A stretch of 42,100 nucleotides of DNA from a virus (taxonomy: Duplodnaviria > Caudoviricetes): positions 1 to 42,100 of the IMG/VR virus record IMGVR_UViG_3300037167_000001; one strand, written 5' to 3'. Shown here piece by piece: positions 1 to 42,100 of the stretch. The notes beneath the pieces are model-generated. The model searched no databases. It was not told where the DNA came from and saw only the letters and a list, made by a program, of their open reading frames with translations. A program made the translations under genes and the position numbers. How positions within the stretch are numbered: the first letter of the stretch is position 1; each line of letters begins with the position of its first letter.

Positions 1-127
1 CCGCGTTGCTGGCAGTGTCTAGAATTGGCACCAGACTATATCGCTACAGGGCGTCATGATGACCGTAAATCTCCTCCTCGAACTAAAAAAGAATCTGAGT
101 TCCGTAAACTAGCAGAAGGTCCTTCTG
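1..127. repeat. Terminal direct repeat identical to 41974-42100 (circular assembly overlap)
   Basis: Exact 127-nt match between the two ends. 127 is a common assembler k-mer, and an ORF continues across the join. Confidence 0.95.
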
Positions 128-149
128 TCTTCTCATTCTAAGGATTAAA

Positions 150-485
150 ATGGCACAGAAAAATGGCAGGCGAACTGGTGCCTCTCAAGAGGTTATGCAG
201 TATCTAACTTCTAACGCAGATCGCCCACTTATCCAAGCGCAAATCGCAAATGAACTTGGTATGGAAAAGTGGCAGGTGTCTAACGCGGTCAATACTCTCG
301 CAGCTAAATTCCCTCAGGTTGAACGTCCTGCTAATGGTATTTATCGTTGGAACTCTAAGGTAGTTGAAAAGCCACAAGAGCCTGAGACTGAACTAATTGT
401 GAAGATTGTGGATAGGAAGGCTGACGGTACACTTCTAGTTACTGACGAGAATTCTGTCTATGTCATGCGAAAGTTGGACTGGTAA
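150..485 (+). CDS. Winged-helix/HTH DNA-binding protein
   Basis: EVMQYL...LIQAQIANELGMEKWQVSNAVNTL is an HTH pattern, followed by a beta-wing (VERPANGIYRW). Confidence 0.65.
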   Translation: MAQKNGRRTGASQEVMQYLTSNADRPLIQAQIANELGMEKWQVSNAVNTLAAKFPQVERPANGIYRWNSKVVEKPQEPETELIVKIVDRKADGTLLVTDENSVYVMRKLDW

Positions 486-655
486 TGCACAACCGAGCAG
501 ACCAAGTAGCGACTCTAATTCAGGAATCTATCAGTGATGCAGGAGCTGACTTAGTTCTCCAGTCTGAGACACCTCCATCATTCACTGTCCTGTGGACAGA
601 TCCTGAAACCGACCTAGACTTTACATACGAGGTCTCAGTTAAGGAGACTGGGTAA
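485..655 (+). CDS. Hypothetical protein, 56 aa (MHNRADQV...)
   Basis: Translated by hand; TAATG stop/start coupling at both ends. Confidence 0.7.
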   Translation: MHNRADQVATLIQESISDAGADLVLQSETPPSFTVLWTDPETDLDFTYEVSVKETG

Positions 656-993
656 TGAGCTGGAGCGGCTGGGGATTTACTGTAGGTGGACGACGTGGTG
701 CTGGTAAAATTACAGGTTCTTATGCAGTCACTGAAATTACTGTCCTTGGAGAAGCTAGTGACTCTGGACAATACTCTGGTACAATTGTTACTGGTGCTAA
801 GGGTGCGAAGACACGTGACAGTCGAGAAGTATATGGACCTCTAGCAGAAATTCTCGAAGCTGCACGTAATGATCACTCAAACGCAGAGAACCATGCTATC
901 TCACGGGATAAGCATGAAGGTCCTTGGACTGCTGGTCCCGGAGGCTATAGCGATCCGGAAGGTTTTGACCCAACAGGTATGGGTGGCGAATAA
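655..993 (+). CDS. Hypothetical protein
   Basis: AAGGAG RBS upstream; coupled to the previous stop codon. Confidence 0.75.
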   Translation: MSWSGWGFTVGGRRGAGKITGSYAVTEITVLGEASDSGQYSGTIVTGAKGAKTRDSREVYGPLAEILEAARNDHSNAENHAISRDKHEGPWTAGPGGYSDPEGFDPTGMGGE

Positions 994-1002
994 CTAAAGA
1001 CT

Positions 1003-1137
1003 CAGTAGGTAGTTTAAGCTGATCGGTGGACGAGCAGCATAAAACATTTCCTAGCTAAGCACACTCGATATGGCGTAGTGTGTTAGGAAAAGATCTGGGA
1101 CTTTCTTCCCCCGTTCGAAATGATTCCCAGCCTACTG
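1003..1137 (+). ncRNA. Putative four-way-junction, tRNA-like structured RNA
   Basis: Closing stem CAGTAGG/CCTACTG encloses three hairpins; it ends 3 nt before tRNA-Asn. Confidence 0.5.
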
Positions 1138-1140
1138 TAA

Positions 1141-1445: not shown

Positions 1446-1709
1446 ATGCCTTGGCTTATCCGACCTAAAGGTAAACAGTTTGTTCTGCTTAATCAAGATA
1501 CTGGAGTACAGAAAGGCCCAGAGTTCGCTACACATGATGAAGCCAGAAACTATCAGAAGGCATTATATGCCAATGACCCCTCTGCTGTAGCAGAAGCTAA
1601 GAAAATTGAAGCGGCTGGAAAAGGTGGACAAGAACTCTGGCATCACGCTAAGAGTAATGCAATCAAAAATAAAATAAAGGATACCAATGGACCTCAAGCG
1701 AAACGCTGA
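1446..1709 (+). CDS. Hypothetical protein
   Basis: GGAGG RBS; first gene of an overlapping run. Confidence 0.75.
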   Translation: MPWLIRPKGKQFVLLNQDTGVQKGPEFATHDEARNYQKALYANDPSAVAEAKKIEAAGKGGQELWHHAKSNAIKNKIKDTNGPQAKR

Positions 1710-1923
1710 CGGAACTTATCTCATCATCCCTAATCCTGGTTTTAAATTCATTGTAATTGCTGCAGCAATGTACGAAGAGGGTCGTAAGGTAATTGCACTA
1801 GATGCAGGTGATCGAGTAGGCACCAACGATAAGCCCAAGGTTTACCATGCACTATCTGACTTCCTAAGTGAACGTGCAGAACAACTCGCGGAAGAAGTAA
1901 TCGAGGACGAACATGGCGACTAA
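1687..1923 (+). CDS. Hypothetical protein
   Basis: AAGGA RBS; overlaps both neighbours. Confidence 0.7.
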   Translation: MDLKRNADGTYLIIPNPGFKFIVIAAAMYEEGRKVIALDAGDRVGTNDKPKVYHALSDFLSERAEQLAEEVIEDEHGD

Positions 1924-2161
1924 GGCAAAAGTAATTCTCTTCAAAGGTAGTGGTAAATATTATACAGAGGAAGAGTGGGAAGTTCCGTTAGGAGCTATCC
2001 ATCCTGCCGATATGCTTTGGAGCGAAGACTATCATAGAATTGGTACAGGTGCTGTACTTGTAGTATCCCAAGAACCTTGGGGATTCCCTCATCTATTTCC
2101 ATTCGCAGTATCATATGACGACCAACATCGCGATACTAAACCTAACTGGCTCGAGGAATGA
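1913..2161 (+). CDS. Hypothetical protein
   Basis: GAGGA RBS; tightly packed in the operon. Confidence 0.7.
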   Translation: MATKAKVILFKGSGKYYTEEEWEVPLGAIHPADMLWSEDYHRIGTGAVLVVSQEPWGFPHLFPFAVSYDDQHRDTKPNWLEE

Positions 2162-2164
2162 TGA

Positions 2165-2551
2165 ATGCCCTCAAAGGAGACGTACTCGGGACTTAGTCGC
2201 CGAGACCGTCAATACCTCTCTGTAGCGGTAGAACTTGCCAAAACTTCTACCTGTCGTAATAAGCACGGTGCGTTAGTTGTAGTTGGCGGAAGTGTTATCG
2301 CTACAGGGGTTAATAGAGAACGGAACCCGCCAGGTATCCTATCAGATTTTGATTTGATTCATGGTGGGATTAGCTATCATGCAGAGGCAATGGCACTTAA
2401 GCAACTTAGATTTACAATTCCAAATAGAGCAACCATATATGTAGCAAGGGTTAACAGGGCAGGGATTGAAAGATTATCTCGACCTTGCAATAACTGCTAT
2501 AAGTTGCTACAACAATACGAGATCAAGGAAGTGGTGTATACAATTGACTAG
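2165..2551 (+). CDS. dCMP/cytidine deaminase family protein
   Basis: HAE and PCxxC zinc motifs, plus KHGALVV and IATGVN. Confidence 0.88.
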   Translation: MPSKETYSGLSRRDRQYLSVAVELAKTSTCRNKHGALVVVGGSVIATGVNRERNPPGILSDFDLIHGGISYHAEAMALKQLRFTIPNRATIYVARVNRAGIERLSRPCNNCYKLLQQYEIKEVVYTID

Positions 2552-2783
2552 CCAGACTATGGATAACTTATTCACACAGAATCGTAACCTCTGGTTTGAA
2601 CTTATGGATAGCAAAAGGTTCGATACGATTCTGGATATGTTCCGTGTGTTTGCTCCTCAGGTAGGGAAGGAAACATGGGAGACGACCGGTTTATCTGAGA
2701 CTCCGGTTATTCCTACTTCCATTGAAACTTCTGCTGAGCGAATTGCCCGCCAGAAGAACGGGAAGATTCGTATTAGAAGGTAG
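2466..2783 (+). CDS. Hypothetical protein (true start probably 2544 or 2559)
   Basis: Fills the gap after the deaminase. Confidence 0.55.
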   Translation: MKDYLDLAITAISCYNNTRSRKWCIQLTSQTMDNLFTQNRNLWFELMDSKRFDTILDMFRVFAPQVGKETWETTGLSETPVIPTSIETSAERIARQKNGKIRIRR

Positions 2784-2997
2784 TGTATACCACTTGACAG
2801 AGAATAGATCTGTGCTACAATGGAGTAGTACAACAACGAAATGTACCTGTGGACATTTAGCTAGTGAGGAAGTACACCCGCTCACCAGGCACGAAATCTT
2901 TGAAGGTTCTGTAGATTATATTCGTCCATGTCGCGTACAAATTTGTAAATGCAAGGATCTGGAGATTGATACGACTGGAAAGGCTAAACCTTTATGA
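2722..2997 (+). CDS. Small Cys/His-rich hypothetical protein (start uncertain)
   Basis: CTCGH...H...H...C...CKC pattern; stop overlaps the endolysin ATG. Confidence 0.5.
   Translation: MKLLLSELPARRTGRFVLEGSVYHLTENRSVLQWSSTTTKCTCGHLASEEVHPLTRHEIFEGSVDYIRPCRVQICKCKDLEIDTTGKAKPL
2794..2821 (+). promoter_or_regulatory. Putative SigA/sigma70-type promoter upstream of the endolysin
   Basis: TTGACA-16 nt-TACAAT with an extended -10 TG. Confidence 0.55.
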
Positions 2998-3848
2998 CCA
3001 CAATCTCTTACGATAAACCAGTCGAAGATTTCATTGCTCGATTAGACGCTACAGGGCACGTCACACATACATCATATAAGAAGACGTCAGTTACTCTTCA
3101 TCATAATGGTGGGAAATTATCTCATCAGGGTATTCTTGATGTATGGAAGACTCGTGCAGCATCTGCTCATTTCGATGTTGACAGTTCTGGGGCAGTTGCA
3201 CAGTATGTAAGGGTTGGAGAATACGCATGGGCGGTGGGTAATACCGTAGGTAACGAATCGTCAATTAGTATTGAAATGTGCAATGCAACTCTTGCGCCTA
3301 ATTGGACTGTAAGTGATGTAACCTGGAAGTCTGCAGCTAGACTTGCTGCTTGGCTTTTTGCTCATGTAGTTGGCGCTCGTCCTAGCGCTACTAATCTTCA
3401 TTACCATCACTTCTGGTCATCTACGGACTGCGCTGGTCCGTACATGGATACAATCTACACTAAGGTACTTACAGAAGCACAACATCAATATGATATCTTT
3501 ACAGGTGCAGCAACTCCTACAGTAATTGGAAGTGACATGGATCTTTACCAGGTACCTGACGGCCGATTCTATCTAGTAGGCTCTGGCCGTAACGGTGTAA
3601 AGTTTGCTCGTATCGACGCTATTGGTCAGAATTTAGCAGATGCAGGTAAGCCGGTATATAAGGTAGCTGCTTCCGTACTTACAGCCCTAACTAACACACC
3701 TTATTTCTCTGCCGATAATGTTTCGGATATTGTTGATGCTGTAGTTGCTGCACTTCCTGCTACTAGTGGAGGTGCATCACTCTCTGTGGCGGATGTCCGG
3801 GGAGCTGTAGCAGATGCCCTGACTCACTCAAGTTTTACCGTTAGCTGA
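2994..3848 (+). CDS. Endolysin, N-acetylmuramoyl-L-alanine amidase (Amidase_2-like)
   Basis: VTLHH, SAHFDV, AWAVGN, SISIE and H...TDCAG amidase motifs. Confidence 0.88.
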   Translation: MTTISYDKPVEDFIARLDATGHVTHTSYKKTSVTLHHNGGKLSHQGILDVWKTRAASAHFDVDSSGAVAQYVRVGEYAWAVGNTVGNESSISIEMCNATLAPNWTVSDVTWKSAARLAAWLFAHVVGARPSATNLHYHHFWSSTDCAGPYMDTIYTKVLTEAQHQYDIFTGAATPTVIGSDMDLYQVPDGRFYLVGSGRNGVKFARIDAIGQNLADAGKPVYKVAASVLTALTNTPYFSADNVSDIVDAVVAALPATSGGASLSVADVRGAVADALTHSSFTVS

Positions 3849-3849
3849 C

Positions 3850-3878
3850 TTGCTTCGACTGTCCCGATGTGGCATACT
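3850..3878 (+). promoter_or_regulatory. Putative promoter
   Basis: TTGCTT-17 nt-CATACT followed by GGTCTTAG, which also follows the promoter at 36395. Confidence 0.5.
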
Positions 3879-3884
3879 GGTCTT

Positions 3885-4001
3885 AGAGCCAAGGTGAAGC
3901 GGCGCTAGACAGTAGCCATGGCAACCTATCTACCCTGGTGGGCAGGGTGATAGGAAAGGCCCCGGGACTTGCGGAAACGCAGTCCCGGGGTCTTTTCTTT
4001 T
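3885..4001 (+). ncRNA. Putative small RNA, about 115 nt
   Basis: Intergenic, lies between a promoter and a terminator, and contains three consecutive hairpins. Confidence 0.45.
3958..4001 (+). terminator. Intrinsic terminator
   Basis: GCCCCGGGACT-TGCG-GAAA-CGCA-GTCCCGGGGT stem followed by TTTTCTTTT. Confidence 0.85.
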
Positions 4002-4017
4002 CCCCTATGGAGTTATA

Positions 4018-4563
4018 GTGGATCTTGGAATTAGTCCTTGTATACCCTGCGTAACTGGATTCCATTGGGAATGCCCGTCGCTACAGGGAGATAATTGTTG
4101 CTGTGATAGTTCTGGTCCTCTAGGAATTACTCAGAATAAACGTGGTGGACCTGTAAAATCCGATGAAGATGTGACAGATCCGCAATCTACTGGCCGTAAA
4201 CGTGCGGCAGTAGCTTATCCTCTTGAAGAAGGAATGACCTGTGAGTGGTCTTCACTTAAGTATGCCGGAGGAGGATCTTTCCCTATTATCGGATGTCCTG
4301 GGCACAAAGCTACAAACAGGCATCACGGCCCCGATAAAAATGTCCTTAACAATTCAGAGGGAAACGTCCATCGGATCTGTGCATTCTGTCACAATCGTTG
4401 GCACGCTAGAAACGATCCACTGTACCAGGAAGTTTTTGGAACTGACCAATGGAAGACTCACGATCCAGAGACACGGGCGACTCAAGCCGAAGTCTTAGAG
4501 TCTGAACTATTCTGGCAAACCACACCTGCCCAAAGAATTAAGGTGCTAGACCATGAGCATTAA
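4018..4563 (+). CDS. Cys-rich HNH-like endonuclease
   Basis: RHH...N...NVHRICAFCHNRWH matches the HNH/CxxCH pattern. Confidence 0.65.
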   Translation: MDLGISPCIPCVTGFHWECPSLQGDNCCCDSSGPLGITQNKRGGPVKSDEDVTDPQSTGRKRAAVAYPLEEGMTCEWSSLKYAGGGSFPIIGCPGHKATNRHHGPDKNVLNNSEGNVHRICAFCHNRWHARNDPLYQEVFGTDQWKTHDPETRATQAEVLESELFWQTTPAQRIKVLDHEH

Positions 4564-4801
4564 GCATTCCTGGGGTCCAACTGAGTTTGACGGTGATTAC
4601 GTAAAGAATCGCGGCGTTAAGTATGTGCACAAGCCTGATGGCAATGAAGTATACTTACTCGAAGAGACATTTGATTTCTCTGTAGAAGGTGACCCTACCG
4701 AAGGTAAACCTGGAGATTTCGTAGCATTCTTCCCTAAGTTGAATAGTCTATTTACAATTCCAGCACAAGCCAAGGAAGCAAATTATGACCGAGCCAGTTG
4801 A
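4553..4801 (+). CDS. Hypothetical protein
   Basis: Overlapping operon packing; AAGG RBS. Confidence 0.7.
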   Translation: MSIKHSWGPTEFDGDYVKNRGVKYVHKPDGNEVYLLEETFDFSVEGDPTEGKPGDFVAFFPKLNSLFTIPAQAKEANYDRAS

Positions 4802-5006
4802 TTTTGGTGTAAACTTTTCCAACAACGCTACAGACCCAGCAAACATTCCTGTCGAGATTAACTATCCAATGTTGCGGGATCGTGCAATGCAGTTTGCGGC
4901 TACGATTCCACATGAGGTTATTCTCGACCTCCTAAAGGATACTGATCTCACTGTAGCGTATCTTCTTAATGGCACACTTCCAGAAGATGCACTAGGTCCA
5001 CTATGA
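4785..5006 (+). CDS. Hypothetical protein
   Basis: AAGGA RBS; ATGA coupling to the next gene. Confidence 0.7.
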   Translation: MTEPVDFGVNFSNNATDPANIPVEINYPMLRDRAMQFAATIPHEVILDLLKDTDLTVAYLLNGTLPEDALGPL

Positions 5007-5860
5007 GTTTACCTGTCCTGAGTCACTCAGAAGCAGATGCGTTTGAGCTATGCGAACGTAGACACTATTACGCATTTGGTGAGAAGCTAGCGCGTAAAAC
5101 TGTGTCTAAGTCGTTACAGCGAGGTATCTTAGGCCATGAAGTTCTTCACACGTATTTCAGAGTGTACCAAGAAACTAACTCTCTTAAGGCTGCTGCTGCT
5201 GCTTCTGATCGTCTTCTGGGGAGTATGTTATTTGAAGATGAGAAACGGGATACTGCATTAGAACTTAAACCTCTACTGGATTATTTCTTTAGTGTCTTTG
5301 AGGATAAGTTTGCAGGCTGGCAGATTCAAGGTGTAGAGGAAGTCAATAGACTTGCTTTCCCTGATTTCCAATTTGTATTCCAGGTTGACTTAAGGTATAA
5401 AGAAGGCGGCTTCGAGTATATTCTCGACTGGAAATTTACCTATGATTTCTATTCTGGTGACATGCAAAGTTTGCTCCCACAAGTCCCGCGGTATACTGGA
5501 GCTTTGCGAGCACTTGGCAAAAATATTAGATCCGGTCGCTATGGATTTATTCGATATCGGAATCTCAAATCCACCGACCCATACGATAAATTCGGAATCA
5601 TTCCGATGGACCTCTCGAAGGCCAGAATTGAATCAGCTTTTCGTGACCTCATTTTAACTCAAAAGAAAATCGCAGCTAAAAAGGCAATGCCACTTTCGGA
5701 ATGGAAGGACAATGTTAGCCGCACCGCTAATCAACTAGTATGCAAGAGTTGTTCATTTGCATCTCTCTGTGTAGCGGAGGCAAATGGCTCAGATGGCAAG
5801 GTAATTCGAGCAACTTACTATAAACCTTCCGAATACGGATACTCAGAGGAAGAATCTTAA
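5003..5860 (+). CDS. PD-(D/E)XK (RecB/Cas4-like) exonuclease
   Basis: LSHS...C, GILGH, VDL...ILDWK and C-terminal CxxC...C. Confidence 0.85.
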   Translation: MSLPVLSHSEADAFELCERRHYYAFGEKLARKTVSKSLQRGILGHEVLHTYFRVYQETNSLKAAAAASDRLLGSMLFEDEKRDTALELKPLLDYFFSVFEDKFAGWQIQGVEEVNRLAFPDFQFVFQVDLRYKEGGFEYILDWKFTYDFYSGDMQSLLPQVPRYTGALRALGKNIRSGRYGFIRYRNLKSTDPYDKFGIIPMDLSKARIESAFRDLILTQKKIAAKKAMPLSEWKDNVSRTANQLVCKSCSFASLCVAEANGSDGKVIRATYYKPSEYGYSEEES

Positions 5861-6739
5861 ATGGCAACTAAAGAGCAGATGTACCAAAACTTACTAGACT
5901 CTATGCAAGAATTATCAGATGTTCAGAAGAGACTCAGAGCAATTCTCTATGGCATGTCTGGCGCGGGTAAGACAATCTTCGCAATGATGATTGCACAGGC
6001 AATTACACCACCAGATCAAATCATTCTATACATCGACTTCTCCGAAGGCTTCTTTGTATTTCAGAACCCAGAATGGAAGCACTTAACCCGGCGAGTTAAG
6101 CGTATCCAATATAACACAAGTGAAGGACTTTCACAGCTCGAAGCTATCTCATACGCAGTACAGGCTAAGACTGGTGTTTTCGCTAACGTAGGATGTATCA
6201 TTCTTGATGAAGGTACATCTATGGCAGATGCTGACTTACGTCTAGTACGTGCTATGAACGTAGCAAGAAATCCTGTATTAGATCCAGATGTAGCCGAAGG
6301 TCCTGACTATATTGCTGAACAAAATAGATTTTCTAAGACCTTCAATGTATTAATGGGCGCACCTGTCCACCACATTATTGTCTGTCACCCTAGGGTAGAC
6401 AAGGTTAATAACCTAGCTATTACAGACATTGGATTCTCTCCAAAACTTGGTGCAATTCTTAAGCGTGATCTGCATTTAGTTGGACACTTTACTGCAGACT
6501 TGCCTAGTGCATCTGGCCTGGAGGATCCGGTATACACGCGTTGGGTTCAGGTTCATCCGACGCGAACTATTGAAGCTAAGACTCGTATCACTGGTTTACC
6601 AGTTAAGATCGAGGCATCCAAACTTCTCACCGCTATTACTGAGTTTATTAATGGCAGTCGAGGGGAAGAAGAACCGAAAGAAACACTCCCGATTGAACAG
6701 GCAGAAGATGTATCCGATTTCGCAATCACAGTAGAATGA
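5861..6739 (+). CDS. AAA_24/Sak4-like ATPase (recombination)
   Basis: Walker A GMSGAGKT, Walker B IILDE, and AKTR; sits between the exonuclease and the SSB. Confidence 0.8.
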   Translation: MATKEQMYQNLLDSMQELSDVQKRLRAILYGMSGAGKTIFAMMIAQAITPPDQIILYIDFSEGFFVFQNPEWKHLTRRVKRIQYNTSEGLSQLEAISYAVQAKTGVFANVGCIILDEGTSMADADLRLVRAMNVARNPVLDPDVAEGPDYIAEQNRFSKTFNVLMGAPVHHIIVCHPRVDKVNNLAITDIGFSPKLGAILKRDLHLVGHFTADLPSASGLEDPVYTRWVQVHPTRTIEAKTRITGLPVKIEASKLLTAITEFINGSRGEEEPKETLPIEQAEDVSDFAITVE

Positions 6740-6752
6740 GGTTTAGTTAATC

Positions 6753-7217
6753 ATGGGTCTTTTTGATGGCATTGATGTTGCATCTGCAAATGACGATCCA
6801 TTTAGCGTCCCTGTAGATTCATATGTCTGCACCATTACTCAGGCAGAGGCTAAGGCAACTAAGGCTGGCGATAAGGTTGGCCTGAATCTTACATACACTA
6901 TTTCTGAGGGAGCTTACAAGGGTTCTTCGATCTCAGACTGGAAGGAAATTCCGTCTAAGCCTGAGACTGATGATTCAGATGTTCAGGCAGAGTACATGCG
7001 TAAGCGTTCCTTCCTTAAGCAGCGTATGCTTTCGTTCGGTGTCCCTGAGGGTCGAATTAATGCAATCGAGGCAAGTGATCTCATCGGGACTGACCTCGTA
7101 GTTACTTTGGTTAAGGCTAAGTCGGGCAAGACTGTGATTAAGAATATCCAGCCTGCGAATGGCGCTACAGGGGTTAGCATAACTCCAGGTAATCCGTTCT
7201 TGGTAATCCGTTCTTGA
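6753..7217 (+). CDS. Putative ssDNA-binding protein (DUF669-like)
   Basis: P.D.Y...I..AE.K.TK.G and TISEGAYKG pattern; usual position after a Sak4-like ATPase. Confidence 0.65.
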   Translation: MGLFDGIDVASANDDPFSVPVDSYVCTITQAEAKATKAGDKVGLNLTYTISEGAYKGSSISDWKEIPSKPETDDSDVQAEYMRKRSFLKQRMLSFGVPEGRINAIEASDLIGTDLVVTLVKAKSGKTVIKNIQPANGATGVSITPGNPFLVIRS

Positions 7218-7330
7218 GCTAAATAGGGTAAGGGCCGGATGTCTATCAGACAGGTGCGATTCGTGACTCCGGGAGCGGGAGATATGGTACCCCGCACTTA
7301 ATATATCAATCCCAGAAAAGTTCATCATTA

Positions 7331-7412: not shown

Positions 7413-7440
7413 CTAACCTTCATTTAGAAAGGCTAAGTAC

Positions 7441-34577: not shown

Positions 34578-34583
34578 GTATAT

Positions 34584-34611: not shown

Positions 34612-34620
34612 GATGATGTA

Positions 34621-34676: not shown

Positions 34677-34786
34677 TTGAGTAGTTAATAAGGTACCGGT
34701 TTGGAAACAACTGGGGCTGAAATACCCGTACAACATGGTGTGGTAGACTTACGTCAGAAAGTTCGGAACTAGCCAAGGAGCAGACC

Positions 34787-35317
34787 ATGCGCATGATGCG
34801 CATCATCACTAACATCACTGAGTACACCATCTCTGAGACTCGGACTGACAGCGAGATGTTGCACGATTACCTCACTGAGCACGTGGTTAACGACGACTAC
34901 ACCGTGACCTTCACTAACTTGACTCTCGAGGCTGAGCACAAGCGTATGTGTAAGGACTACGACTACGAGATTGCGCATTATGTGCGGAAGTACGAGGACT
35001 TCAAGCGCCTCGCGGAGCGCACTACTGAGAGCCTACGAGAGGAGATCTCTCAGATGCGTCGGGAGTATGAGGACTACAAGAGCAAGACTGCCAAGGTCCA
35101 GGAATTCCTCAACAATGAAATCGCGGAGCTAAAAGCTCAGCGTGACGAACTCATCAACAATGTCACCGACATGACTCACACTAAGGATCATTTCTACTGT
35201 GAGAGCTGTAACGGCACTGGCTTCCGCGCATCTGGCGAGATATGTGAAGATTGTGGAGGATACGGCACTACCTTTAAGTGGTGGGCAGATGACGCGCCAG
35301 GTTTCCTTCATGACTAA
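34787..35317 (+). CDS. Early coiled-coil protein with a C-terminal CxxCxGxG zinc finger
   Basis: AAGGAG RBS; CESCNGTG and CEDCGGYG. Confidence 0.8.
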   Translation: MRMMRIITNITEYTISETRTDSEMLHDYLTEHVVNDDYTVTFTNLTLEAEHKRMCKDYDYEIAHYVRKYEDFKRLAERTTESLREEISQMRREYEDYKSKTAKVQEFLNNEIAELKAQRDELINNVTDMTHTKDHFYCESCNGTGFRASGEICEDCGGYGTTFKWWADDAPGFLHD

Positions 35318-35332
35318 TCTCTCCTGAAAATT

Positions 35333-35356
35333 GGCCATCGAGAGATGGCCTTTTTT
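35333..35356 (+). terminator. Intrinsic terminator
   Basis: GGCCATC-GAGA-GATGGCC-TTTTTT. Confidence 0.85.
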
Positions 35357-35505
35357 CATGGGCGCGCATGGAAACAATGCCGTCGCAAGGCCTGAGATCG
35401 CCTCAGAAAGTCTCACCGACACCGCTACAGAGCTTGCATAATCCTGGCGACTATGGTTTACTGATCCTAGGTCGGCAAGGGGCCGGCAGCCAAGGAGAGA
35501 TTGAA

Positions 35506-36258
35506 ATGACTGAGACCGCACCCGAGCCCACCGTGACGTTCGACCCGTTCGTCGCGATGGCCCGTGAGAAGCTCGCAACGATGATTACAGACAACAACGT
35601 GGTCGCGGAGCGTCTGCGTAGCGTCGGAAACACTCGCGCACTGGTCAAGGAAATTCGCGAGGACAAGCCTACCAAGGACGCCGTTATCCTCGAATTCCGT
35701 CTGAAGATGGAGAAGGCTCAGGCTGAAATGAACAAGTGGGAAGCCGATGTTGACGCGCACATTAAGGCGTCAGGCATGGTTACTACTGGAGATGTGGACG
35801 TCGAGAAGGAAACTGCAGCTTGGAAGGCTGCGCACTCTGCCATTAAGCCAATGCGGGATGTTCTGCAGAATCTCGGTGGCGACGCTGCAGTAGCAGGTCT
35901 TCCTGAGATTAAGGGAATTCCTGGGAAGTCCGGCGGGTCCGCTGCTGGTGCTTCTGGAATCTCTCGTCCGCGTCTGCAGAAGATTCGTTACACTATCGCG
36001 GGCAAGGAGGAATGGGTCGAGGTTTACACCACGGTCGAGGTTGACGGGTCTCCTGTCCAGAAGACTACGCTTACTAACCTCGCCGCTGCTCTCAATAAGT
36101 CCTTCGGTTCCAGTGTCTCGGCGGCTGATATTCAGTCGCCGATGTTCGACGCTGCTGGTACCAAGGATCTCAGCACTCGGAACGGTGAGCCTGTGAGTTT
36201 CGCTTTCACTGCTGGCGAGACCAACGTCATCATCGAGGTTACCCCTCGCGTCGCATAG
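35506..36258 (+). CDS. Early hypothetical protein (start MTETAPE)
   Basis: AAGGAG RBS before ATG 35506; GC-richer codons; has its own terminator. Confidence 0.8.
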   Translation: MTETAPEPTVTFDPFVAMAREKLATMITDNNVVAERLRSVGNTRALVKEIREDKPTKDAVILEFRLKMEKAQAEMNKWEADVDAHIKASGMVTTGDVDVEKETAAWKAAHSAIKPMRDVLQNLGGDAAVAGLPEIKGIPGKSGGSAAGASGISRPRLQKIRYTIAGKEEWVEVYTTVEVDGSPVQKTTLTNLAAALNKSFGSSVSAADIQSPMFDAAGTKDLSTRNGEPVSFAFTAGETNVIIEVTPRVA

Positions 36259-36267
36259 TCCGAAGGA

Positions 36268-36307
36268 TAAAGGGTCGGCCCAGATATTGGGTCGGCCCTT
36301 TATTTTT
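36268..36307 (+). terminator. Intrinsic terminator
   Basis: ATAAAGGGTCGGCCCA...TGGGTCGGCCCTTTAT followed by a T-run. Confidence 0.8.
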
Positions 36308-36394
36308 ACCGGGTCGTTTAACTTTCAACCAAGCCTGCATGGAAACAATGCGGGCGATATGTCTGTTGTATACCATATGTCCAATATGTCATAC

Positions 36395-36423
36395 TTGACA
36401 GGCTCGCTACAGAGGCGTAGCAT
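36395..36423 (+). promoter_or_regulatory. SigA-type promoter with the octamer in its spacer
   Basis: TTGACA-ggctCGCTACAGaggcg (17 nt)-TAGCAT. Confidence 0.65.
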
Positions 36424-36547
36424 TGGTCTTAGTCGTAACCGCCCGGCGGATGAAATCACCGGATGAGTTATTGAACATTCAGAACAGAACATGGAATGAA
36501 CGATATCCCTCTTATATCCAATCGCTATTCACATGAAGGGAATCGTC

Positions 36548-36691
36548 ATGAAGCCAAGAGTTTACAAGGAAAAGATGGCTCTCGAAAATCTCTTTCCTTG
36601 CTGGGTCGTTCTCGATAATACTGGTCGTCCTGCGTATTTCAAGACCTGGAATTTGGCCATGAAATACGCAACTGAATGGGCAATCAACTAA
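36548..36691 (+). CDS. Small hypothetical protein, 47 aa (MKPRVYKE...)
   Basis: Translated by hand; GAAGGG RBS. Confidence 0.55.
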   Translation: MKPRVYKEKMALENLFPCWVVLDNTGRPAYFKTWNLAMKYATEWAIN

Positions 36692-36939
36692 ACATTCTAA
36701 TGACTGGCGTTAGGACTACATAATACTCGAGAGCTGAAGAGTTCTGTTCCGATACAGGGGAAAAGAAAAAGTAATTTCCCATTCATATTCTGTATCCATT
36801 TCGTTTTCGAGAGCCACGTCAAGAAGTAAAAAGAAAAACCAAGAAGAATATAATATCCAAATCATTCAGGAATTTCGAATCGAGCATAATGGCCTCAGAA
36901 AGATGAGGCATATTATAATCGAAAAAATATTGGGGTTAA

Positions 36940-37149
36940 GGTTATTATCATTAGCTATCTCTATCCCTCTGGGAGAGATAGCATGATAATAACCCCAGTC
37001 ATGATCAACAGACTACACGGCGTAACGTGTAAACGGCCTCTGACCTGCAGGTTTGCACTACACGGTGTAGCGTGTACACTCTACATCGGGGACCGTGTAA
37101 TGACCTGTTACGTCCCTACACGCAAGCCGATGTAAGTCATGATCAACAG
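36940..37149. repeat. Hairpin plus a repeat-bounded cluster of TACACG-like motifs (candidate origin or packaging locus)
   Basis: Hairpin at 36940-36994; AGTCATGATCAACAG at 36997-37011 and 37135-37149; several TACACG/CGTGTA copies in between. Confidence 0.6.
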
Positions 37150-37172
37150 GGATTTTATAAATTTCACCCAAT

Positions 37173-37442
37173 ATGCCTCGTCTTTCAGGAGTGATTATGC
37201 TATTCAAAATTAGAATCGGACAGAAGAATGGTGCGTTTACCTTAGGTAGTACAGATGCACCAGAACTAACTATTGTAGACGGACGTGTCACGGGAATATC
37301 GGCTACCTGGGATAAAGGACTAGGCTATCCTCTTTACATTGACTGGACCGATGTTACCTCCGTCTCTGTAGCGGTTATCGAATCTCGTGGTCCTAGCGAA
37401 GAAACTTCTCCCCGTATTTTAGGAGGGATGTTTAACTTCTAA
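37173..37442 (+). CDS. Hypothetical protein (start possibly 37197)
   Basis: AGGAG RBS before MLFKI; TAATG coupling to the next gene. Confidence 0.7.
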   Translation: MPRLSGVIMLFKIRIGQKNGAFTLGSTDAPELTIVDGRVTGISATWDKGLGYPLYIDWTDVTSVSVAVIESRGPSEETSPRILGGMFNF

Positions 37443-37945
37443 TGCCACGTAAACTAATTAACCCAGATGAATTATTCTCACTACTATTCAATGCACCAGA
37501 AGGGCTTACGCCTTCTGAGGTTGAATTCGCATTAGGTCTCACACCTAACACAGTTGACTATCATCTCAAGAAGAAAGCATTCTCCAAGCAGATTACTGGA
37601 AGGTATAAGTTAACATCACGGGATCTAGATGACTTCCGTACACTTGGCGGATACGCATTACCTGCATTAGGTGACAACTCTGTAGCGAAGAAAGACTATC
37701 CATTTAAACTGCGCGACTGGAAATCGCTTGTTAAACCTAGCACATTGTCTGAGGTAATGGACTTCATTAAACTTGGTGCCGAGGAACTCCTCAAAGCCAG
37801 CACTTACACTGATGAAAATAACCTTTCAGGTATACTGATGCTCACAGAGATGTTACAATACTACATCGACTCTGTAGCGTTCGATAAGCGCTATTCCGAT
37901 CCAGAGGCTCGGGAATACATCCTGACGACACCCTTGGAGAAATAA
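37442..37945 (+). CDS. HTH-containing DNA-binding protein
   Basis: GLTPSEVEFALGLTPNTVDYHLKK...GRYKL winged-helix pattern; AGGAGG RBS. Confidence 0.65.
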   Translation: MPRKLINPDELFSLLFNAPEGLTPSEVEFALGLTPNTVDYHLKKKAFSKQITGRYKLTSRDLDDFRTLGGYALPALGDNSVAKKDYPFKLRDWKSLVKPSTLSEVMDFIKLGAEELLKASTYTDENNLSGILMLTEMLQYYIDSVAFDKRYSDPEAREYILTTPLEK

Positions 37946-38122
37946 ATGGACAGGATTAGGACAGTACAAAGCTGGATCATTCTCGGTTTTCTCTTGGGAT
38001 GTATTATCACACTCTCTGTAGCGCTGTCTTTACCCAAGGAGAATCCCCCATTCCATAACCCATTCTTTCAGTCGAACTGTTATGGAACCTCTGCACAATA
38101 CCCGCCCTGTAGCGGAAAGTAG
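37946..38122 (+). CDS. Small membrane protein, 58 aa
   Basis: Translated by hand; hydrophobic WIILGFLLGCIITLSVAL; GGAG RBS. Confidence 0.6.
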   Translation: MDRIRTVQSWIILGFLLGCIITLSVALSLPKENPPFHNPFFQSNCYGTSAQYPPCSGK

Positions 38123-38125
38123 GTT

Positions 38126-38356
38126 TTGATATGGCAACCAGAACTAGTCGGCGTCAGGGAACTAAAACGAAGTTGGCCCGGCGGACTGCATATCTCAAGT
38201 GGCGTGCACAGCATTGCAAGAAAAATGTCCAGACCAGGTAGTTCAGACAGACTAATAATTCTTCTCTGTACCGCTGTCTTGGCGTACATCGCATATAAAA
38301 CATACGGCCCACAAATCCACGAATTCATCCAGCCTTATCTGCCACGAAAGAGGTAA
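38126..38356 (+). CDS. Small membrane-associated hypothetical protein (start uncertain)
   Basis: Hydrophobic segment LIILLCTAVLAYIAY. Confidence 0.45.
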   Translation: MIWQPELVGVRELKRSWPGGLHISSGVHSIARKMSRPGSSDRLIILLCTAVLAYIAYKTYGPQIHEFIQPYLPRKR

Positions 38357-38362
38357 CTTCTA

Positions 38363-38572
38363 ATGCCGACTGGAATTCGACTTGGCATTACCTGTGGTAT
38401 ATGTGGCTCGGGTTATTCTATCACCTGTAGCGAAGAACAGTATCGGCAGTATCAGGCACATGAAAAGAATATCCAGGATATCTTTCCTGAACTATCTGCG
38501 GATATTCGTGAACTATTACTCAGTGGTATCTGCGGCACGTGCTATGACAAACTCTGTGGAGATGAAGACTAG
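38363..38572 (+). CDS. Small zinc-binding protein
   Basis: CGIC and CGTC pairs, and IQDIFPELS...RELLLSGIC. Confidence 0.75.
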   Translation: MPTGIRLGITCGICGSGYSITCSEEQYRQYQAHEKNIQDIFPELSADIRELLLSGICGTCYDKLCGDED

Positions 38573-38767
38573 TGGATCAGAATCTTCAACTAGAAGTTAT
38601 TTACATGGATCATTCGATGCTCTATTATCCTGTTGCAGAAGGTTGGAAGATTGATCCTGCACAACGAGTAATCGTAGTAGGTCGTGGAGTCCCAAGAACT
38701 ATGATTCCTCTAGATAATGTACGAGCATTTTCAATCTGCAGAGTGTAACAAGAAATAGGAGAGTGTA

Positions 38768-40753
38768 ATGTCTGTCTTCGAGTCCATCAACGCCGATATG
38801 AGTGAGTCGGATATAGTTGCCGAGGATATCGTTGCGCTGCAGGATAAGAGGACAGCGCTCAAGGATTCCATTGCCGAAGATGAATTGCGCATTAAAACTC
38901 TCAACGAAGAGATCGAGAGAATTAAGCGTGAAGCACAAGAGGCAATGACTCTACTCGCTACAGAGCGGCAGAATATTACCGAGAAGATTTGGGATACTCG
39001 ACAGGAGATCAAGCGTATCGAAAAGGAAATCCTTAATCTTGAGCAGAAGCTTCGACTGCTATTAGATGCAGAGAAAAAGAAGAAGGAATTCCAGGACGCT
39101 TCTATTCAATTCGATAAGGAAACTGCTGGACTTGCTTGGCGTGAGTGGGCATATGAGCACCAGATCGACGGTGCCCGCTATATGGCTAACGTCAAGAAGA
39201 GTATCCTCGCAGATAAAATGGGACTTGGCAAATCAATGACGGCGCTTATTGCAGCCGACATGCTCAAGTCACAGAGAATTCTAATCGTCTGCCCATCAGA
39301 TGTCGTGCGTAACTTTGAGAAAGAAGTCAAGCATTGGGCGCCGCACCGTAAAATTGTGCTGGCAATGTATAAGATGTCTAAGGCGGAACGCAATGCAGCA
39401 TTCGAGCTATTCCGCCTAGACCCTTATGCAAGTTTCGTGGTCCTCATTAACTATGAAGCGTGGCGTCGGGATGCTTCACTAGTTGATAGGTTAGTTGAAC
39501 TGCGATTCGACACAGTGATTATGGATGAGGCACACACTATCAAGGACACCAATACTTTCGCATTCCGTGGTGTCGAGAAGATTGTGTTTGCTGAGAATTG
39601 CTGCCCGTTCTGTAGCGGCCCAGTGATTAACTATGACATTGATCGCTACACGCATTACATGAGATGTTCTAATCCGGAGTGCGGCTGGAATACTCGCGAT
39701 AACTATGCGTGGGATGCAGGAGATCGGCGTTCTGTTAAGAATGTATTCCCAATGACTGGCACACCAATTCTTAACAGGCCAGATGAACTCTATCCATTGC
39801 TGCATCTCATTCTGCCAGAAGTGTTCTATGATCTCGAAGTATTCCGTGCACTGTATTGTGAGCAGGATCTATATACCGGCAAGTGGACATTCCAGCCTGG
39901 TGCAATGGATAGGCTGGCGAAACATTTGCAGGGTCGCTATGTCATGCGTAATCGTCACGATGCAGGCGTCAAGATTCCTAAGCAGGAGATTGTAATTCAC
40001 GAGATCCCTGTAGCGGAAATGCAGGAGTTCTATCCAACTCAGTTCAAGCTTATGCAGATGCTTACTAAGCACGCTCAGATTGTATTGGAGTCCGGCAAAA
40101 AGCTCACGGCAATGGCAGCTATCACAATCATTCTGCGGAAGCGTCAGATCAATGTATATCCCGCAGGTGTAAACCTTAAGGATGAAAATGGCAACATCGT
40201 ATTCTCCATTGGAGACGAGACAACAGAGAGTATCAAGCTGGATAAAGCGTTCGACCTTCTCACAGAAATTACAGCCGACGGACTTATCTTTGGTGAAAGA
40301 GCTGTTGTATTCTCGCAGTTCAAGCCAGGAATGCACGCGCTTTCTGAACGACTTAAGGCAAGCGGGATATCGGCGGTTGTATTTGATGGCGCAACGCCAG
40401 AGAGTTTACGAGAAGAGATCAAGGCTGACTTCAATAGGTCGATAGACCAGCCAAGGAAGTGGCAAGTTGTACTTGCGAATTACAAGACTGGAGGTGTTGG
40501 ACTTAACTTCACAGACGCCACTCATATCATTGCTCTGGACGAGGAATGGAATCCTGGGAAAAACGAACAGGCTTGGGGTCGTATTGACCGTATCGGTCAG
40601 ACTCAAGAAACTACTGTACACATTCTCAGGATCGCTGGTACTATTGATACTTGGATGGCTCAGCTTAATGACCAGAAGCGTGATATTGTAGAGGGCTTCG
40701 AGGTTAAGGCAATCGACATCTATGAGGCTATGAAGAATGGAGAAGTCTTGTGA
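38768..40753 (+). CDS. SNF2-like (SF2) helicase/ATPase with an N-terminal coiled coil and a zinc-ribbon insert
   Basis: LADKMGLGKS, IVCP, DEAH, MTGTPILN, VVFSQF, GGVGLN and QAWGRIDRIGQ. Confidence 0.92.
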   Translation: MSVFESINADMSESDIVAEDIVALQDKRTALKDSIAEDELRIKTLNEEIERIKREAQEAMTLLATERQNITEKIWDTRQEIKRIEKEILNLEQKLRLLLDAEKKKKEFQDASIQFDKETAGLAWREWAYEHQIDGARYMANVKKSILADKMGLGKSMTALIAADMLKSQRILIVCPSDVVRNFEKEVKHWAPHRKIVLAMYKMSKAERNAAFELFRLDPYASFVVLINYEAWRRDASLVDRLVELRFDTVIMDEAHTIKDTNTFAFRGVEKIVFAENCCPFCSGPVINYDIDRYTHYMRCSNPECGWNTRDNYAWDAGDRRSVKNVFPMTGTPILNRPDELYPLLHLILPEVFYDLEVFRALYCEQDLYTGKWTFQPGAMDRLAKHLQGRYVMRNRHDAGVKIPKQEIVIHEIPVAEMQEFYPTQFKLMQMLTKHAQIVLESGKKLTAMAAITIILRKRQINVYPAGVNLKDENGNIVFSIGDETTESIKLDKAFDLLTEITADGLIFGERAVVFSQFKPGMHALSERLKASGISAVVFDGATPESLREEIKADFNRSIDQPRKWQVVLANYKTGGVGLNFTDATHIIALDEEWNPGKNEQAWGRIDRIGQTQETTVHILRIAGTIDTWMAQLNDQKRDIVEGFEVKAIDIYEAMKNGEVL

Positions 40754-40865
40754 GCGCTAAACATCGACTGGAAAAGATATGCGCTCACTGTAATAAAAAG
40801 ATTCGATGGTATCACGATCCGCACAGTTATTATACTAACGGAGTGCTACAATACTTTCATAGGAA

Positions 40866-41129
40866 GTGTATGTGACTTATATAAGACGAAGGGCATTCAA
40901 TAGTCCAGACTACATAGATAAAATCCCTAAATGGCATATTGGACTAACTGAATCTAAAGCAGAATATCGTTCGATGTGCGGATATAAAATACCCGCTACA
41001 GAGGAGCCACTACGGCGCAGCAAAGTTAGTAAGAATGTGTTGTGTTATCGTTGTCAACAGCAATGGAATTTCCTTCATTATTACGAGTTGGAACAGTCTA
41101 TTGCTAATGGAGATCACTACACTATCTAG
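40866..41129 (+). CDS. Hypothetical protein
   Basis: WH...CG...CYRC pattern. Confidence 0.6.
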   Translation: MYVTYIRRRAFNSPDYIDKIPKWHIGLTESKAEYRSMCGYKIPATEEPLRRSKVSKNVLCYRCQQQWNFLHYYELEQSIANGDHYTI

Positions 41130-41137
41130 GTGAGTAA

Positions 41138-41368
41138 GTGGTAAGGAGAACATACGGAATTGGGCCTAACTTTAAACGGGCTCCATACTGTCATAATCAT
41201 CAGCAATGGTATTATAGTTGTGTGAGTGATCTAAGGAAGCGTATTCACTACGCGGAGAAATACCCATCTCAAAAGAATAAGGAGGCATTGAACGTAGTTC
41301 TTAGTGAAATGGAGAAGATAAAGTCTGATATTAAGGGATGTGTCGAATGTCAGTCTATGATCTCCTAA
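41138..41368 (+). CDS. Hypothetical protein
   Basis: ORF in the early run, containing CxxH and CxxC. Confidence 0.55.
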   Translation: MVRRTYGIGPNFKRAPYCHNHQQWYYSCVSDLRKRIHYAEKYPSQKNKEALNVVLSEMEKIKSDIKGCVECQSMIS

Positions 41369-41483
41369 CTCATGATCAAAGAATCCAACGACAGTATCCA
41401 CCATTCACACTTCCGGATATAGAAGATGACGATAGCACTACTGCTGATGAGTTTGTCCCTGTCTGTAGGAATAGGTACTATAT

Positions 41484-41726
41484 TTGGCTGCAGTTATGTC
41501 TATGGTAGGAGAACCAATGGGCGGCATATATCAAACTTCTACGAAAATCGACGGCGCTTTTTTCGAGAAAGAACTGATCGAACCGTCGACAATTTTAACT
41601 ATGGAGATGATGCGACTATACAACGAGATCCGCCAGATGATGATGAATATGGGAGACTCGTTCGTGGGCAAGGTAGTATTCCTGGAGATGCGAGTTAGGA
41701 CTGCAGATGTTACGGAGAAATCCTGA
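41484..41726 (+). CDS. Hypothetical protein (start uncertain)
   Basis: AGGAG before MGGIY; preferred over the overlapping 41426..41698 frame. Confidence 0.5.
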   Translation: MAAVMSMVGEPMGGIYQTSTKIDGAFFEKELIEPSTILTMEMMRLYNEIRQMMMNMGDSFVGKVVFLEMRVRTADVTEKS

Positions 41727-42100
41727 CGATCCTCACAGTCTCGATGTCTTAATTAACTGGGATGAATTTCCTGCATACTATCTCGGTAAGATCTGTACCT
41801 GTCCACCTAATGTATATGGTCCTTATCCTCCCATTGACATTAAGTGGGATAGGGGATTTATCGCCACCTGTAGCGACTGTCATAAACCGCACGCGCATCT
41901 ACTAGATATATGTAATTGTTGTGATGAAGTTTTTCTCAAGGACTTCAAGCATCCTGGATTCGACTGGAAAGATCCGCGTTGCTGGCAGTGTCTAGAATTG
42001 GCACCAGACTATATCGCTACAGGGCGTCATGATGACCGTAAATCTCCTCCTCGAACTAAAAAAGAATCTGAGTTCCGTAAACTAGCAGAAGGTCCTTCTG
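41707..42100 (+). CDS. Cys-rich protein spanning the circular join (41707..41973 + 1..141, 135 aa)
   Basis: Translated by hand: MLRRNPDD...CTC...CSDC...CNCC...CWQC...GPSVFSF, with the stop at 139-141. Confidence 0.75.
   Translation, partial: MLRRNPDDPHSLDVLINWDEFPAYYLGKICTCPPNVYGPYPPIDIKWDRGFIATCSDCHKPHAHLLDICNCCDEVFLKDFKHPGFDWKDPRCWQCLELAPDYIATGRHDDRKSPPRTKKESEFRKLAEGPS
41974..42100. repeat. Terminal direct repeat identical to 1-127
   Basis: Exact match. Confidence 0.95.

What the first reader, a model, noticed from the sequence alone, without database searches (positions are those of the whole stretch)
42..41875. Genome-wide asymmetric octamer CGCTACAG, about 50-fold over-represented and written through coding sequence
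Seen: 53 exact copies by hand count. On + (CGCTACAG): 42, 2299, 3047, 4079, 4826, 7163, 8636, 10710, 10885, 12100, 12868, 16060, 17668, 19171, 22464, 23331, 23977, 28848, 31305, 31473, 32639, 33416, 33941, 34272, 35423, 36405, 38956, 40994. On - (CTGTAGCG on +): 1363, 2220, 4951, 8590, 9830, 10595, 12933, 14483, 16128, 16404, 16795, 18121, 19068, 20430, 28271, 29713, 37366, 37680, 37872, 38016, 38107, 38425, 39610, 40008, 41868. Base composition predicts roughly one copy. The variant CGCTACAC adds 11 more (1526, 5769, 18166, 18664, 22547, 26016, 26508, 29875, 31226, 37065, 39644), two of them inside the longest exact-match gap (about 24.0-28.3 kb, over capsid and scaffold). The motif is read as Ala-Thr, Val-Ala, Cys-Ser, Leu-Gln and Arg-Tyr in different genes. 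It also occurs between genes and inside polymerase motif B (10710), so the selection appears to act on the DNA, not the peptide. Known comparators: mycobacteriophage stoperators are oriented to transcription, Chi and KOPS are polar, and HIP1 is palindromic; none fits a non-palindromic word on both strands of both arms. Inference: this is a cis-acting address system averaging one site per 0.8 kb (about 1.6 kb per strand). It could serve as priming sites for the RepB-type primase, sites for a phage protein that coats or marks self DNA, or sites for a host nuclease-attenuating or modifying enzyme.
Basis: partly seen in the sequence, partly recalled or inferred. Interest (0 to 1): 0.92.

Follow-up and report, generated by a model that had tools for sequence, protein, structure and literature searches.

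The report
Genome-wide phage primase start signal
An eight-letter DNA word is written 54 times into both strands of this phage genome, related phages carry their own versions of it, and it is likely the signal at which the phage's own primase starts new DNA strands.

Summary
Real. CGCTACAG occurs 54 times (29+, 25-) against 1.2 expected. 47 copies lie in genes, where synonymous-codon shuffles give about 2. The window is a complete podovirus related to Arthrobacter phage Jasmine. It encodes a primase with the RepB' fold fused to a RepA-like helicase (7620-9434).

The word belongs to a family. 15 of 16 named phages carrying this primase domain have a top word ending in ACA, nearly always ACAG or ACAC, as do 61 of 65 IMG/VR loci. 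Two phages of one host strain carry different words, and phages of four host genera share one. CMP1 has the primase but no PolA and still has the word. Two DnaG phages lack it. On the template strand the word starts with CTG or GTG, the triplets such primases are known to read. Likely mechanism: priming sites about every 1.2-1.7 kb per strand (0.75; not shown biochemically).

Against: Pan2 and S-2L lack a word, I found no specificity residue, and the window's minus strand is not evenly spaced. This scan reported the same idea before on other phage DNA. Nine paper searches found no published description.

The parts
42..42022 (.). 54 dispersed copies of CGCTACAG: 29 on + (42, 2299, 3047, 4079, 4826, 7163, 8636, 10710, 10885, 12100, 12868, 16060, 17668, 19171, 22464, 23331, 23977, 28848, 31305, 31473, 32639, 33416, 33941, 34272, 35423, 36405, 38956, 40994, 42015) and 25 on - (1363, 2220, 4951, 8590, 9830, 10595, 12933, 14483, 16128, 16404, 16795, 18121, 19068, 20430, 28271, 29713, 37366, 37680, 37872, 38016, 38107, 38425, 39610, 40008, 41868); likely priming sites
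1526..39651 (.). 11 copies of the variant CGCTACAC (+: 1526, 18166, 18664, 26016, 26508, 39644; -: 5769, 22547, 29875, 31226, 37065); GTG instead of CTG on the template
   Evidence: 11 observed, 1.2 expected
7620..8549 (+). N-terminal part of the primase-helicase: AEP catalytic domain of the RepB' type (about residues 5-206; invariant D93, H132, D161, R172) and a helical bundle (about 222-305); inferred reader of the word
   Evidence: RepB' 3h20, E 3e-11; Z 17.6, rmsd 2.8, 173 aligned; S-2L AEP Z 18.5; pRN1 helix bundle 6gt7 Z 6.0, a middling score; PF16793 weak hits in 12 of 61 relatives
8550..9434 (+). C-terminal RepA-like (superfamily 4) helicase domain of the same protein
   Evidence: AAA_25, E 1e-25; RSF1010 RepA 1nlf/1g8y, target TM 0.8, rmsd about 3
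9376..11169 (+). Family A DNA polymerase, which would extend the primers; carries 4 copies of the word itself, one in motif B (10710)
5003..7217 (+). PD-(D/E)XK exonuclease (5003-5860), Sak4-like annealing ATPase (5861-6739) and SSB (6753-7217): replication and recombination context
1..127 (.). Left terminal repeat (identical to 41974-42100), holding one copy of the word

Best explanation
CGCTACAG is likely the recognition site of this phage's own RepB'-type primase (gene 7620-9434), kept by selection at about one copy per 1.2-1.7 kb on each strand so that new DNA strands would be primed all along the genome. Shown: the enrichment, its writing through synonymous and some amino-acid choices, site turnover between relatives at steady enrichment, the fold of the primase, and the co-occurrence of ACAG/ACAC words with this primase domain across hosts, virion types and helicase partners. 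Inferred: (1) the strand reading 5'-CTGTAGCG-3' is the template, unwound by the fused helicase; (2) the helical bundle holds the CTG/GTG triplet and the 3' bases add lineage-specific contacts; (3) the primer starts with a purine, either just outside the word (5'-RG..., as in pRN1 and NrS-1, which the +1/+2 flank bias favours) or at the T of the triplet (as in RepB'); (4) PolA extends it; (5) because the site is long and so rare by chance, gains that fill gaps are selected, and both strands need sites because forks cross each region in both directions.
For: Counts and nulls. 15 of 16 named genomes with the primase domain have a top 7-mer ending in ACA or holding ACA[G/C]: Shocker CTTTACAG 45/1.8, Jasmine CCACAG 101/30.2, Adat 90/28.4, DS1 CGACAG 116/41.0, ctEqG8 CCTACAG 47/7.6, PMBT14, Serbin, Cozz, Muddy and Triscuit CCACAC (74/21.7, 62/22.6, 71/24.9, 71/24.6, 50/13.8), Schubert GGCCACA 51/7.2, Amigo GCACAC 95/29.6, ctuI7215 CCACAG 72/27.8, Strzyga CCACAGG 29/6.6, CMP1 AGGCACA 25/2.8. 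61 of 65 IMG/VR loci of 9 kb or more do too, where the class covers 612 of 8192 7-mers. CMP1 has no PolA (no profile hit in 50 kb, none annotated in the rest), and Amigo's primase is fused to DUF3987, not to AAA_25, so the AEP part is the shared element. The two PolA+DnaG phages tested (LP-110, ctIqW946) and HTVC023P (another AEP family) have no such word. The word-by-genome table is close to diagonal. Per-strand spacing is more even than random in 14 of 26 strands of 13 genomes against 2-8% of control words, and on both strands of CMP1 and Triscuit. Sites move between relatives: 4 of 39, 2 of 26 and 3 of 23 window sites are shared with L001+L018, L022 and L032, which hold 21, 19 and 32 of their own. 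Known AEPs of this fold read GTG or CCTG and start at or beside it (PMC8567376, PMC8718748, PMC2965215; passages).
Against: No biochemical test. Pan2 carries the primase domain but no word (CCACAC 45/29.1). S-2L, the closest structure to the catalytic domain, has no such word. 4 of 65 IMG/VR loci rank the class 2nd to 11th. No primase residue tracks the word's changes better than columns of control genes. In the window only the + strand is evenly spaced (CV 0.67, P 0.006 with the variant); the - strand is not (CV 1.0, gap 5.8 kb); Shocker, DS1, ctEqG8 and Serbin are even on neither strand. No strand switch marks an origin in the window (P 0.66). Known triplet-reading AEPs need only 3-4 bases, so an 8-base preference here is an extrapolation from NrS-1. 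Me-ZS1, whose AEP my profile does not detect, has a weak TCCACAG (29/8.5), so the word is not strictly confined to this family. The loci are related, several near-identical, and so not independent; an exonuclease and a superfamily 2 helicase also travel with most of them.
Confidence: 0.75

Rival explanations
1. The word is read by another protein of the phage replication-recombination module, such as the PD-(D/E)XK exonuclease (a Chi-like self signal that stops it) or the superfamily 2 helicase (a loading site).
For: These genes occur with the primase in most positive loci (annotations). A non-palindromic word on both strands fits a Chi-like reader. No primase residue tracks the word.
Against: LP-110 (PolA plus a Cas4-like nuclease), ctIqW946 (PolA plus SNF2) and S-2L (PD-(D/E)XK nuclease plus SF2 helicase) have no such word. 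The conserved end of the word is the triplet AEPs read. PolA is excluded as sole reader by CMP1.
Confidence: 0.12
2. The word is a host signal (Chi, uptake sequence or methylation target) that the phage has accumulated.
For: Uptake sequences and Chi are also non-palindromic and written through genes (recalled). The window's host is unknown, and I could not count the word in host genomes.
Against: Same host strain, different words: Jasmine CCACAG 101/30.2 and GCACAC 9/7.7; Amigo GCACAC 95/29.6 and CCACAG 20/24.7. Same word CCACAC in phages of four genera and two phyla. The word follows the primase tree in blocks.
Confidence: 0.04
3. The word is an operator or coating site for a phage HTH, XRE or Lsr2-like protein.
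For: The window encodes three HTH-type proteins (150-485, 34050-34577, 37442-37945), and Jasmine and Adat encode Lsr2-like proteins.
Against: Each HTH gene has detectable homologues in at most two other loci, yet the word class is family-wide. Sites are not tied to gene starts or to the direction of transcription (22 sense, 25 antisense). Their positions turn over.
Confidence: 0.04
4. The word accumulates by a biased process without selection on function, for example primer-derived sequence fixed during repair or recombination.
For: Sites turn over quickly. Extra conservation of silent positions inside sites in 98%-identical relatives is only marginal (53 of 54 against 2152 of 2334).
Against: Even spacing per strand in many genomes points to selection against gaps. 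One-mismatch neighbours are not enriched. Codon shuffles rule out codon bias.
Confidence: 0.05

Closest known systems
RepB' primase of IncQ plasmid RSF1010 with its ssiA/ssiB sites and RepA helicase (PMC8567376, passages)
   Same: Best full-length structural match for the primase part (3h20); the helicase part matches RSF1010 RepA. RepB' starts its primer with dATP at the T of a GTG triplet. D161 and R172 have the 11-residue spacing of RepB' D134 and R145 (spacing only, not aligned).
   Different: RSF1010 has one 40-nt hairpin site per strand and separate genes. Here primase and helicase are fused and there are about 30 short sites per strand, with no excess hairpin beside them (MFE -2.3 against -1.9, sd 1.6).
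NrS-1 primase-polymerase recognition sites, the octamer and GTGG/GTGA (PMC8718748, passages)
   Same: A phage AEP with a helix bundle that reads an 8-nt site and starts at the first base outside it; GTGG is the core of the GTGTGG word of five relatives.
   Different: A different AEP family (6a9w Z 5.2). The passages I read treat the octamer as a possible specific start site and do not report genome-wide enrichment.
pRN1 ORF904 primase, GTG recognition by the helix bundle (PMC2965215, passages)
   Same: GTG triplet read with high specificity, primer started 5' of it with ATP; weak structural match of the bundle (6gt7 Z 6.0).
   Different: A triplet needs no enrichment; archaeal plasmid; superfamily 3 helicase.
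Chi, KOPS, uptake sequences, mycobacteriophage stoperators (recalled, not looked up)
   Same: Non-palindromic words enriched genome-wide and written through genes.
   Different: The first three are read by host proteins and fixed per host, and stoperators follow transcription. This word changes between phage lineages, not between hosts, and shows no polarity.

Membership tests
RepB'-type AEP primase (gene 7620-9434) | AEP catalytic fold like RSF1010 RepB' | tested here: met
   Foldseek 3h20 E 3e-11; VIA Z 17.6, rmsd 2.8, 173 aligned
RepB'-type AEP primase (gene 7620-9434) | Conserved acidic, His and Arg catalytic motifs | tested here: met
   D93, H132, D161, R172 invariant in 61 of 61 rows; DxD at 91-93 seen in the sequence
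RepB'-type AEP primase (gene 7620-9434) | Helix bundle (PriCT-like) domain after the catalytic domain | tested here: inconclusive
   Five helices at 222-305; matches to the pRN1 bundle are weak (Z 6.0; E 0.07); no PriCT Pfam hit
RepB'-type AEP primase (gene 7620-9434) | Pfam PF16793 above its gathering score | tested here: inconclusive
   The window protein has no hit; 12 of 61 relatives hit at E<=0.01; Cozz and PMBT14 homologues pass the cut-off
RSF1010 ssiA/ssiB-type initiation site | One 40-nt site per strand with a hairpin | tested here: not met
   53 unique short sites; flank folding no stronger than random
AEP primase recognition site | Template triplet with central T (GTG or CTG) at the priming end | tested here: met
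   Template reads CTG in 54 and GTG in 11 copies, ATG and TTG in 0; which strand is the template is inferred
AEP primase recognition site | Co-occurrence with the enzyme | tested here: met
   15 of 16 named genomes, 61 of 65 IMG/VR loci; absent in 2 of 2 DnaG phages; exception Pan2
AEP primase recognition site | Sequence-dependent primer synthesis by the purified enzyme | not testable with these tools
   Needs an in vitro assay
Chi/KOPS-type host polar motif | Strand polarity along the replication direction | tested here: not met
   29+/25-, no change point (P 0.66)
Chi/KOPS-type host polar motif | Same word in the host chromosome | not tested
   Host unknown; the genome search draws no relatives for a virus record; indirect evidence against
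Stoperator | Orientation fixed to transcription | tested here: not met
   22 sense, 25 antisense

The most novel reading that the evidence does not exclude
Phages with RepB'-type primase-helicases run a private priming code: each lineage's enzyme reads its own 6-8-base word, the genome rewrites hundreds of codons to keep a spaced grid of that word on both strands, and so the enzyme primes its own genome and largely ignores host and rival-phage DNA. The top genomic word would then give any such primase's specificity without an experiment, and swapping primase genes between lineages would carry a genome-wide cost.
Probability: 0.4. Interest if true: 0.8.

Novelty: new variant of a known kind. 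Interest (0 to 1): 0.62.

Why it matters
If true, a large phage group encodes its priming sites as a genome-wide constraint on codons and even on amino acids. The specificity of uncharacterised primases (annotated as 'RecA-like recombinase' in many GenBank records) could be read from genome words. That bears on a known obstacle: for the structurally related S-2L enzyme no primase activity was seen, perhaps for lack of the right template (PMC8065100, passage), although S-2L itself shows no such word. Cultured phages with different words (Jasmine, Amigo, Shocker, Cozz) make cross-specificity directly testable. It also predicts a barrier to exchange of replication genes and a hidden constraint for recoding these phages.

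Tried and rejected
Codon or peptide bias: rejected. Tandem or longer repeat family: no longer conserved unit beyond a short purine-rich flank. Origin-centred polarity: a run of 8 + sites then 7 - sites around 36.4-37.1 kb looked like a switch, but the change-point test gave P 0.66, and only Shocker and Serbin of 13 genomes gave P<0.02. Hairpin beside the sites: none. Specificity residue: mutual information and no-overlap scans on 56 of 66 tree rows (10 dropped: Pan2 and 9 with weak words) gave no convincing column; R518 in the helicase part separates T from G words, but control genes give as many hits. The tree is the quick version, the careful search did not finish. PolA as reader: rejected by CMP1. 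S-2L as an extension: no word. RSF1010 was not in the collections under two recalled accessions, so ssiA was not compared base by base. Sequence search of the PDB found nothing for the primase part. No near DNA match among cultured phages for bases 1-25000. Scans of metagenome and genome contigs did not run, as the alignments had no stretch conserved enough, so no prophage or host was found. Paper searches showed no report of these words; only listings were seen except for the papers cited. In the Microbacterium phage survey PMC7302621 the strings GGCCAC and GTGGCC do not occur in the main text (supplements not read).
Full report
1. Observation. The word is there as described. Chance gives 1.19 by dinucleotide shuffle (max 5 of 100) and 2.4 by an order-3 Markov model. 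CGCTACAC adds 11 copies (1.2 expected); CGCTACAA and CGCTACAT are absent, and the other one-mismatch neighbours are near expectation. The signal is therefore CGCTACA[G/C], followed by a soft flank: purine at +1 in 42 of 53 and G at +2 in 35 of 53.

2. Selection on the DNA. 47 copies fall in my 51-gene set and 7 outside. Synonymous shuffles give 2.0 to 2.3 (max 8 of 1000). Of 88 places where the peptide permits the word, 47 carry it. The tripeptide [SPTA]VA, the commonest way to write it, occurs 42 times against 22 expected, while the control [SPTA]AV is at 22, so some amino acids have been bent too. In 98%-identical relatives 18 of 20 sites are kept (L003, L004). At 37-59% protein identity the word is the same but the places differ: 4 of 39, 4 of 17, 2 of 22, 2 of 26, 3 of 23, 3 of 12 and 0 of 7 window sites are shared. 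What is conserved is enrichment, not position.

3. The genome. The window is a complete 42.1-kb podovirus with a P22-like portal and SU10-like capsid and adaptor. Its nearest cultured relatives by capsid, primase, PolA and SNF2 helicase are Arthrobacter phages Jasmine and Adat, Microbacterium phage Shocker and Cellulosimicrobium phage DS1, so an actinobacterial host is likely but not shown. No methyltransferase was found among 59 ORFs. Gene 7620-9434 folds (pLDDT 90) into an AEP domain most like RSF1010 RepB' (E 3e-11; Z 17.6) and S-2L PrimPol (Z 18.5), a helical bundle, and a helicase domain like RSF1010 RepA. It is in effect RepB' and RepA in one chain.

4. The word is one of a family. Each podovirus relative has its own top word: Shocker CTTTACAG, Jasmine and Adat CCACAG, DS1 CGACAG, ctEqG8 CCTACAG. 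Phages with other virions that share the primase do too: CCACAC in PMBT14, Serbin, Cozz, Muddy and Triscuit; GGCCACA in Schubert; GCACAC in Amigo; CCACAG in ctuI7215 and Strzyga; AGGCACA(G) in CMP1. That is 15 of the 16 named genomes I fetched out of the 307 and 133 records that matched; five were read over 50 kb only. Pan2 is the miss. I had stated the class (ACA then G or C) before the IMG/VR loci were read. Of 80 loci returned (best 80 of 546), 15 under 9 kb were dropped; in 61 of the other 65 the top 7-mer is of this class, which covers 7.5% of 7-mers. Several of these loci are near-duplicates. On a quick tree of 66 primase domains the words come in blocks, with repeated switches of the base before ACA.

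5. Which gene. The host is not the determinant: Jasmine and Amigo infect the same strain and each is enriched only for its own word, while CCACAC spans four genera. The virion is not either, since podo- and siphoviruses share the class. PolA is not required: CMP1 has the primase, no PolA, and AGGCACA 25 times against 2.8, evenly spaced on both strands (P 0.0004 and 0.02). PolA is not enough: of four phages picked for a PolA like the window's but no hit to my primase profile, LP-110 and ctIqW946 (DnaG) and HTVC023P (another AEP family) lack the class; Me-ZS1, whose primase has an NrS-1-type helix bundle, has a weak TCCACAG. The helicase half is not required, as Amigo's AEP is fused to DUF3987. 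This leaves the AEP-bundle part as the best common factor. The exonuclease and superfamily 2 helicase are not fully excluded.

6. Fit to known biochemistry (passages read, not whole papers). RepB' starts with dATP at the T of a GTG triplet in ssiA (PMC8567376). pRN1 ORF904 primes only on GTG and starts 5' of it (PMC2965215). NrS-1 reads an octamer and GTGG/GTGA and starts at the first base outside; human PrimPol and some microbial ones read CCTG and start inside (PMC8718748). Read on the other strand, the words begin CTG or GTG. In the window both occur, ATG and TTG never, and the bases where an outside primer would begin are mostly purines on the new strand. G is also the commonest next base in 8 of the 9 ACAG relatives listed, though not in Jasmine.

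7. Spacing. I tested spacing after reading this scan's earlier notes. Per strand, gaps are more even than random in 14 of 26 strands, against 2-8% of control 6-mers; Triscuit reaches CV 0.29. Strands alternate more than chance in 6 of 13 genomes. Mean gaps of 0.7-2.8 kb per strand are near the 1-2 kb of bacterial Okazaki fragments (recalled). In the window itself only the + strand is even; the - strand has a 5.8-kb gap, and there is no polarity switch. Sites on both strands everywhere imply forks in both directions, as recombination-started or strand-displacement replication would give. That step is inferred; the exonuclease, Sak4-like and SSB genes fit it.

8. Against. There is no assay. Pan2 and S-2L have related AEPs and no word; both lack a full PolA, but so does CMP1. 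No primase column tracks the word. Four genomes are even on neither strand. Co-occurrence among kin is not independent evidence.

9. Novelty. Sequence-specific AEP priming is known. A lineage-specific long site enriched and spaced genome-wide in RepB'-type phages did not appear in nine searches; the library lacks most subscription papers, and I read no supplements. This scan's earlier notes reach the same reading on other genomes, including a CTGTAG word and GGTGTGGA in this enzyme family. They are unchecked AI notes and add no independent support; my primase reading was recorded before I saw them. Verdict: real, a new variant of a known kind, primase site 0.75, interest 0.62.

Noticed in passing
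window 2972, 5425, 23671, 37714, 38367, 40765, 41961 (+): A second word, CGACTGGAA, occurs 7 times, all on +, against 0.4 expected. One copy lies just before the right terminal repeat and several sit at gene boundaries; it looks like an oriented operator or processing signal.
   Followed up: partly
window 30541-30768 (-): Acb2/Tad1-type anti-defence sponge gene directly after the large terminase (PF24729, E 4e-19).
   Followed up: no
window 1141-1213 and 7331-7413 (+): tRNA-Asn(GTT) and tRNA-Leu(TAA); the second lies just upstream of the primase gene.
   Followed up: no
window, L006, L009 (whole genomes): CCACAC, the word of the siphovirus relatives, is depleted in the window (2/10.7), Jasmine (1/11.0) and Adat (2/9.2); restriction avoidance or avoidance of a rival site are both possible.
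   Followed up: no
L005 (Shocker), 25 copies, clustered at 63-1927 and 44321-45010: A second enriched word TACCCTA(A), mostly at gene boundaries and genome ends; it looks regulatory.
   Followed up: partly
window 34621-34692; 36883-36914 with 37170-37201: A 36-bp tandem pair in the divergent intergenic region, and a 32-nt inverted repeat around 255 bp in the largely non-coding stretch 36.3-37.2 kb; candidate operator and origin features.
   Followed up: no
L082:10435-10905, L096:6561-6950, L068: The primase domain is not in one frame in these loci (split gene, intron or frameshift), yet all three keep a top CGACA word.
   Followed up: no
L100 (ctIqW946): A DnaG-MCM fusion primase with an enriched word CTCGCAG (83/32.9), not evenly spaced.
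   Followed up: partly
L099 (Me-ZS1): A primase with an NrS-1-type helix bundle and TCCACAG 29/8.5, evenly spaced on + (P 0.003), which hints that the rule extends to other AEP families.
   Followed up: partly
window 2994-3848, 13319-14095, 14109-14693: Three cell-wall enzymes: an amidase endolysin placed among early genes, far from the holin-like genes, and SLT and NlpC/P60 domains after the large internal virion protein.
   Followed up: no
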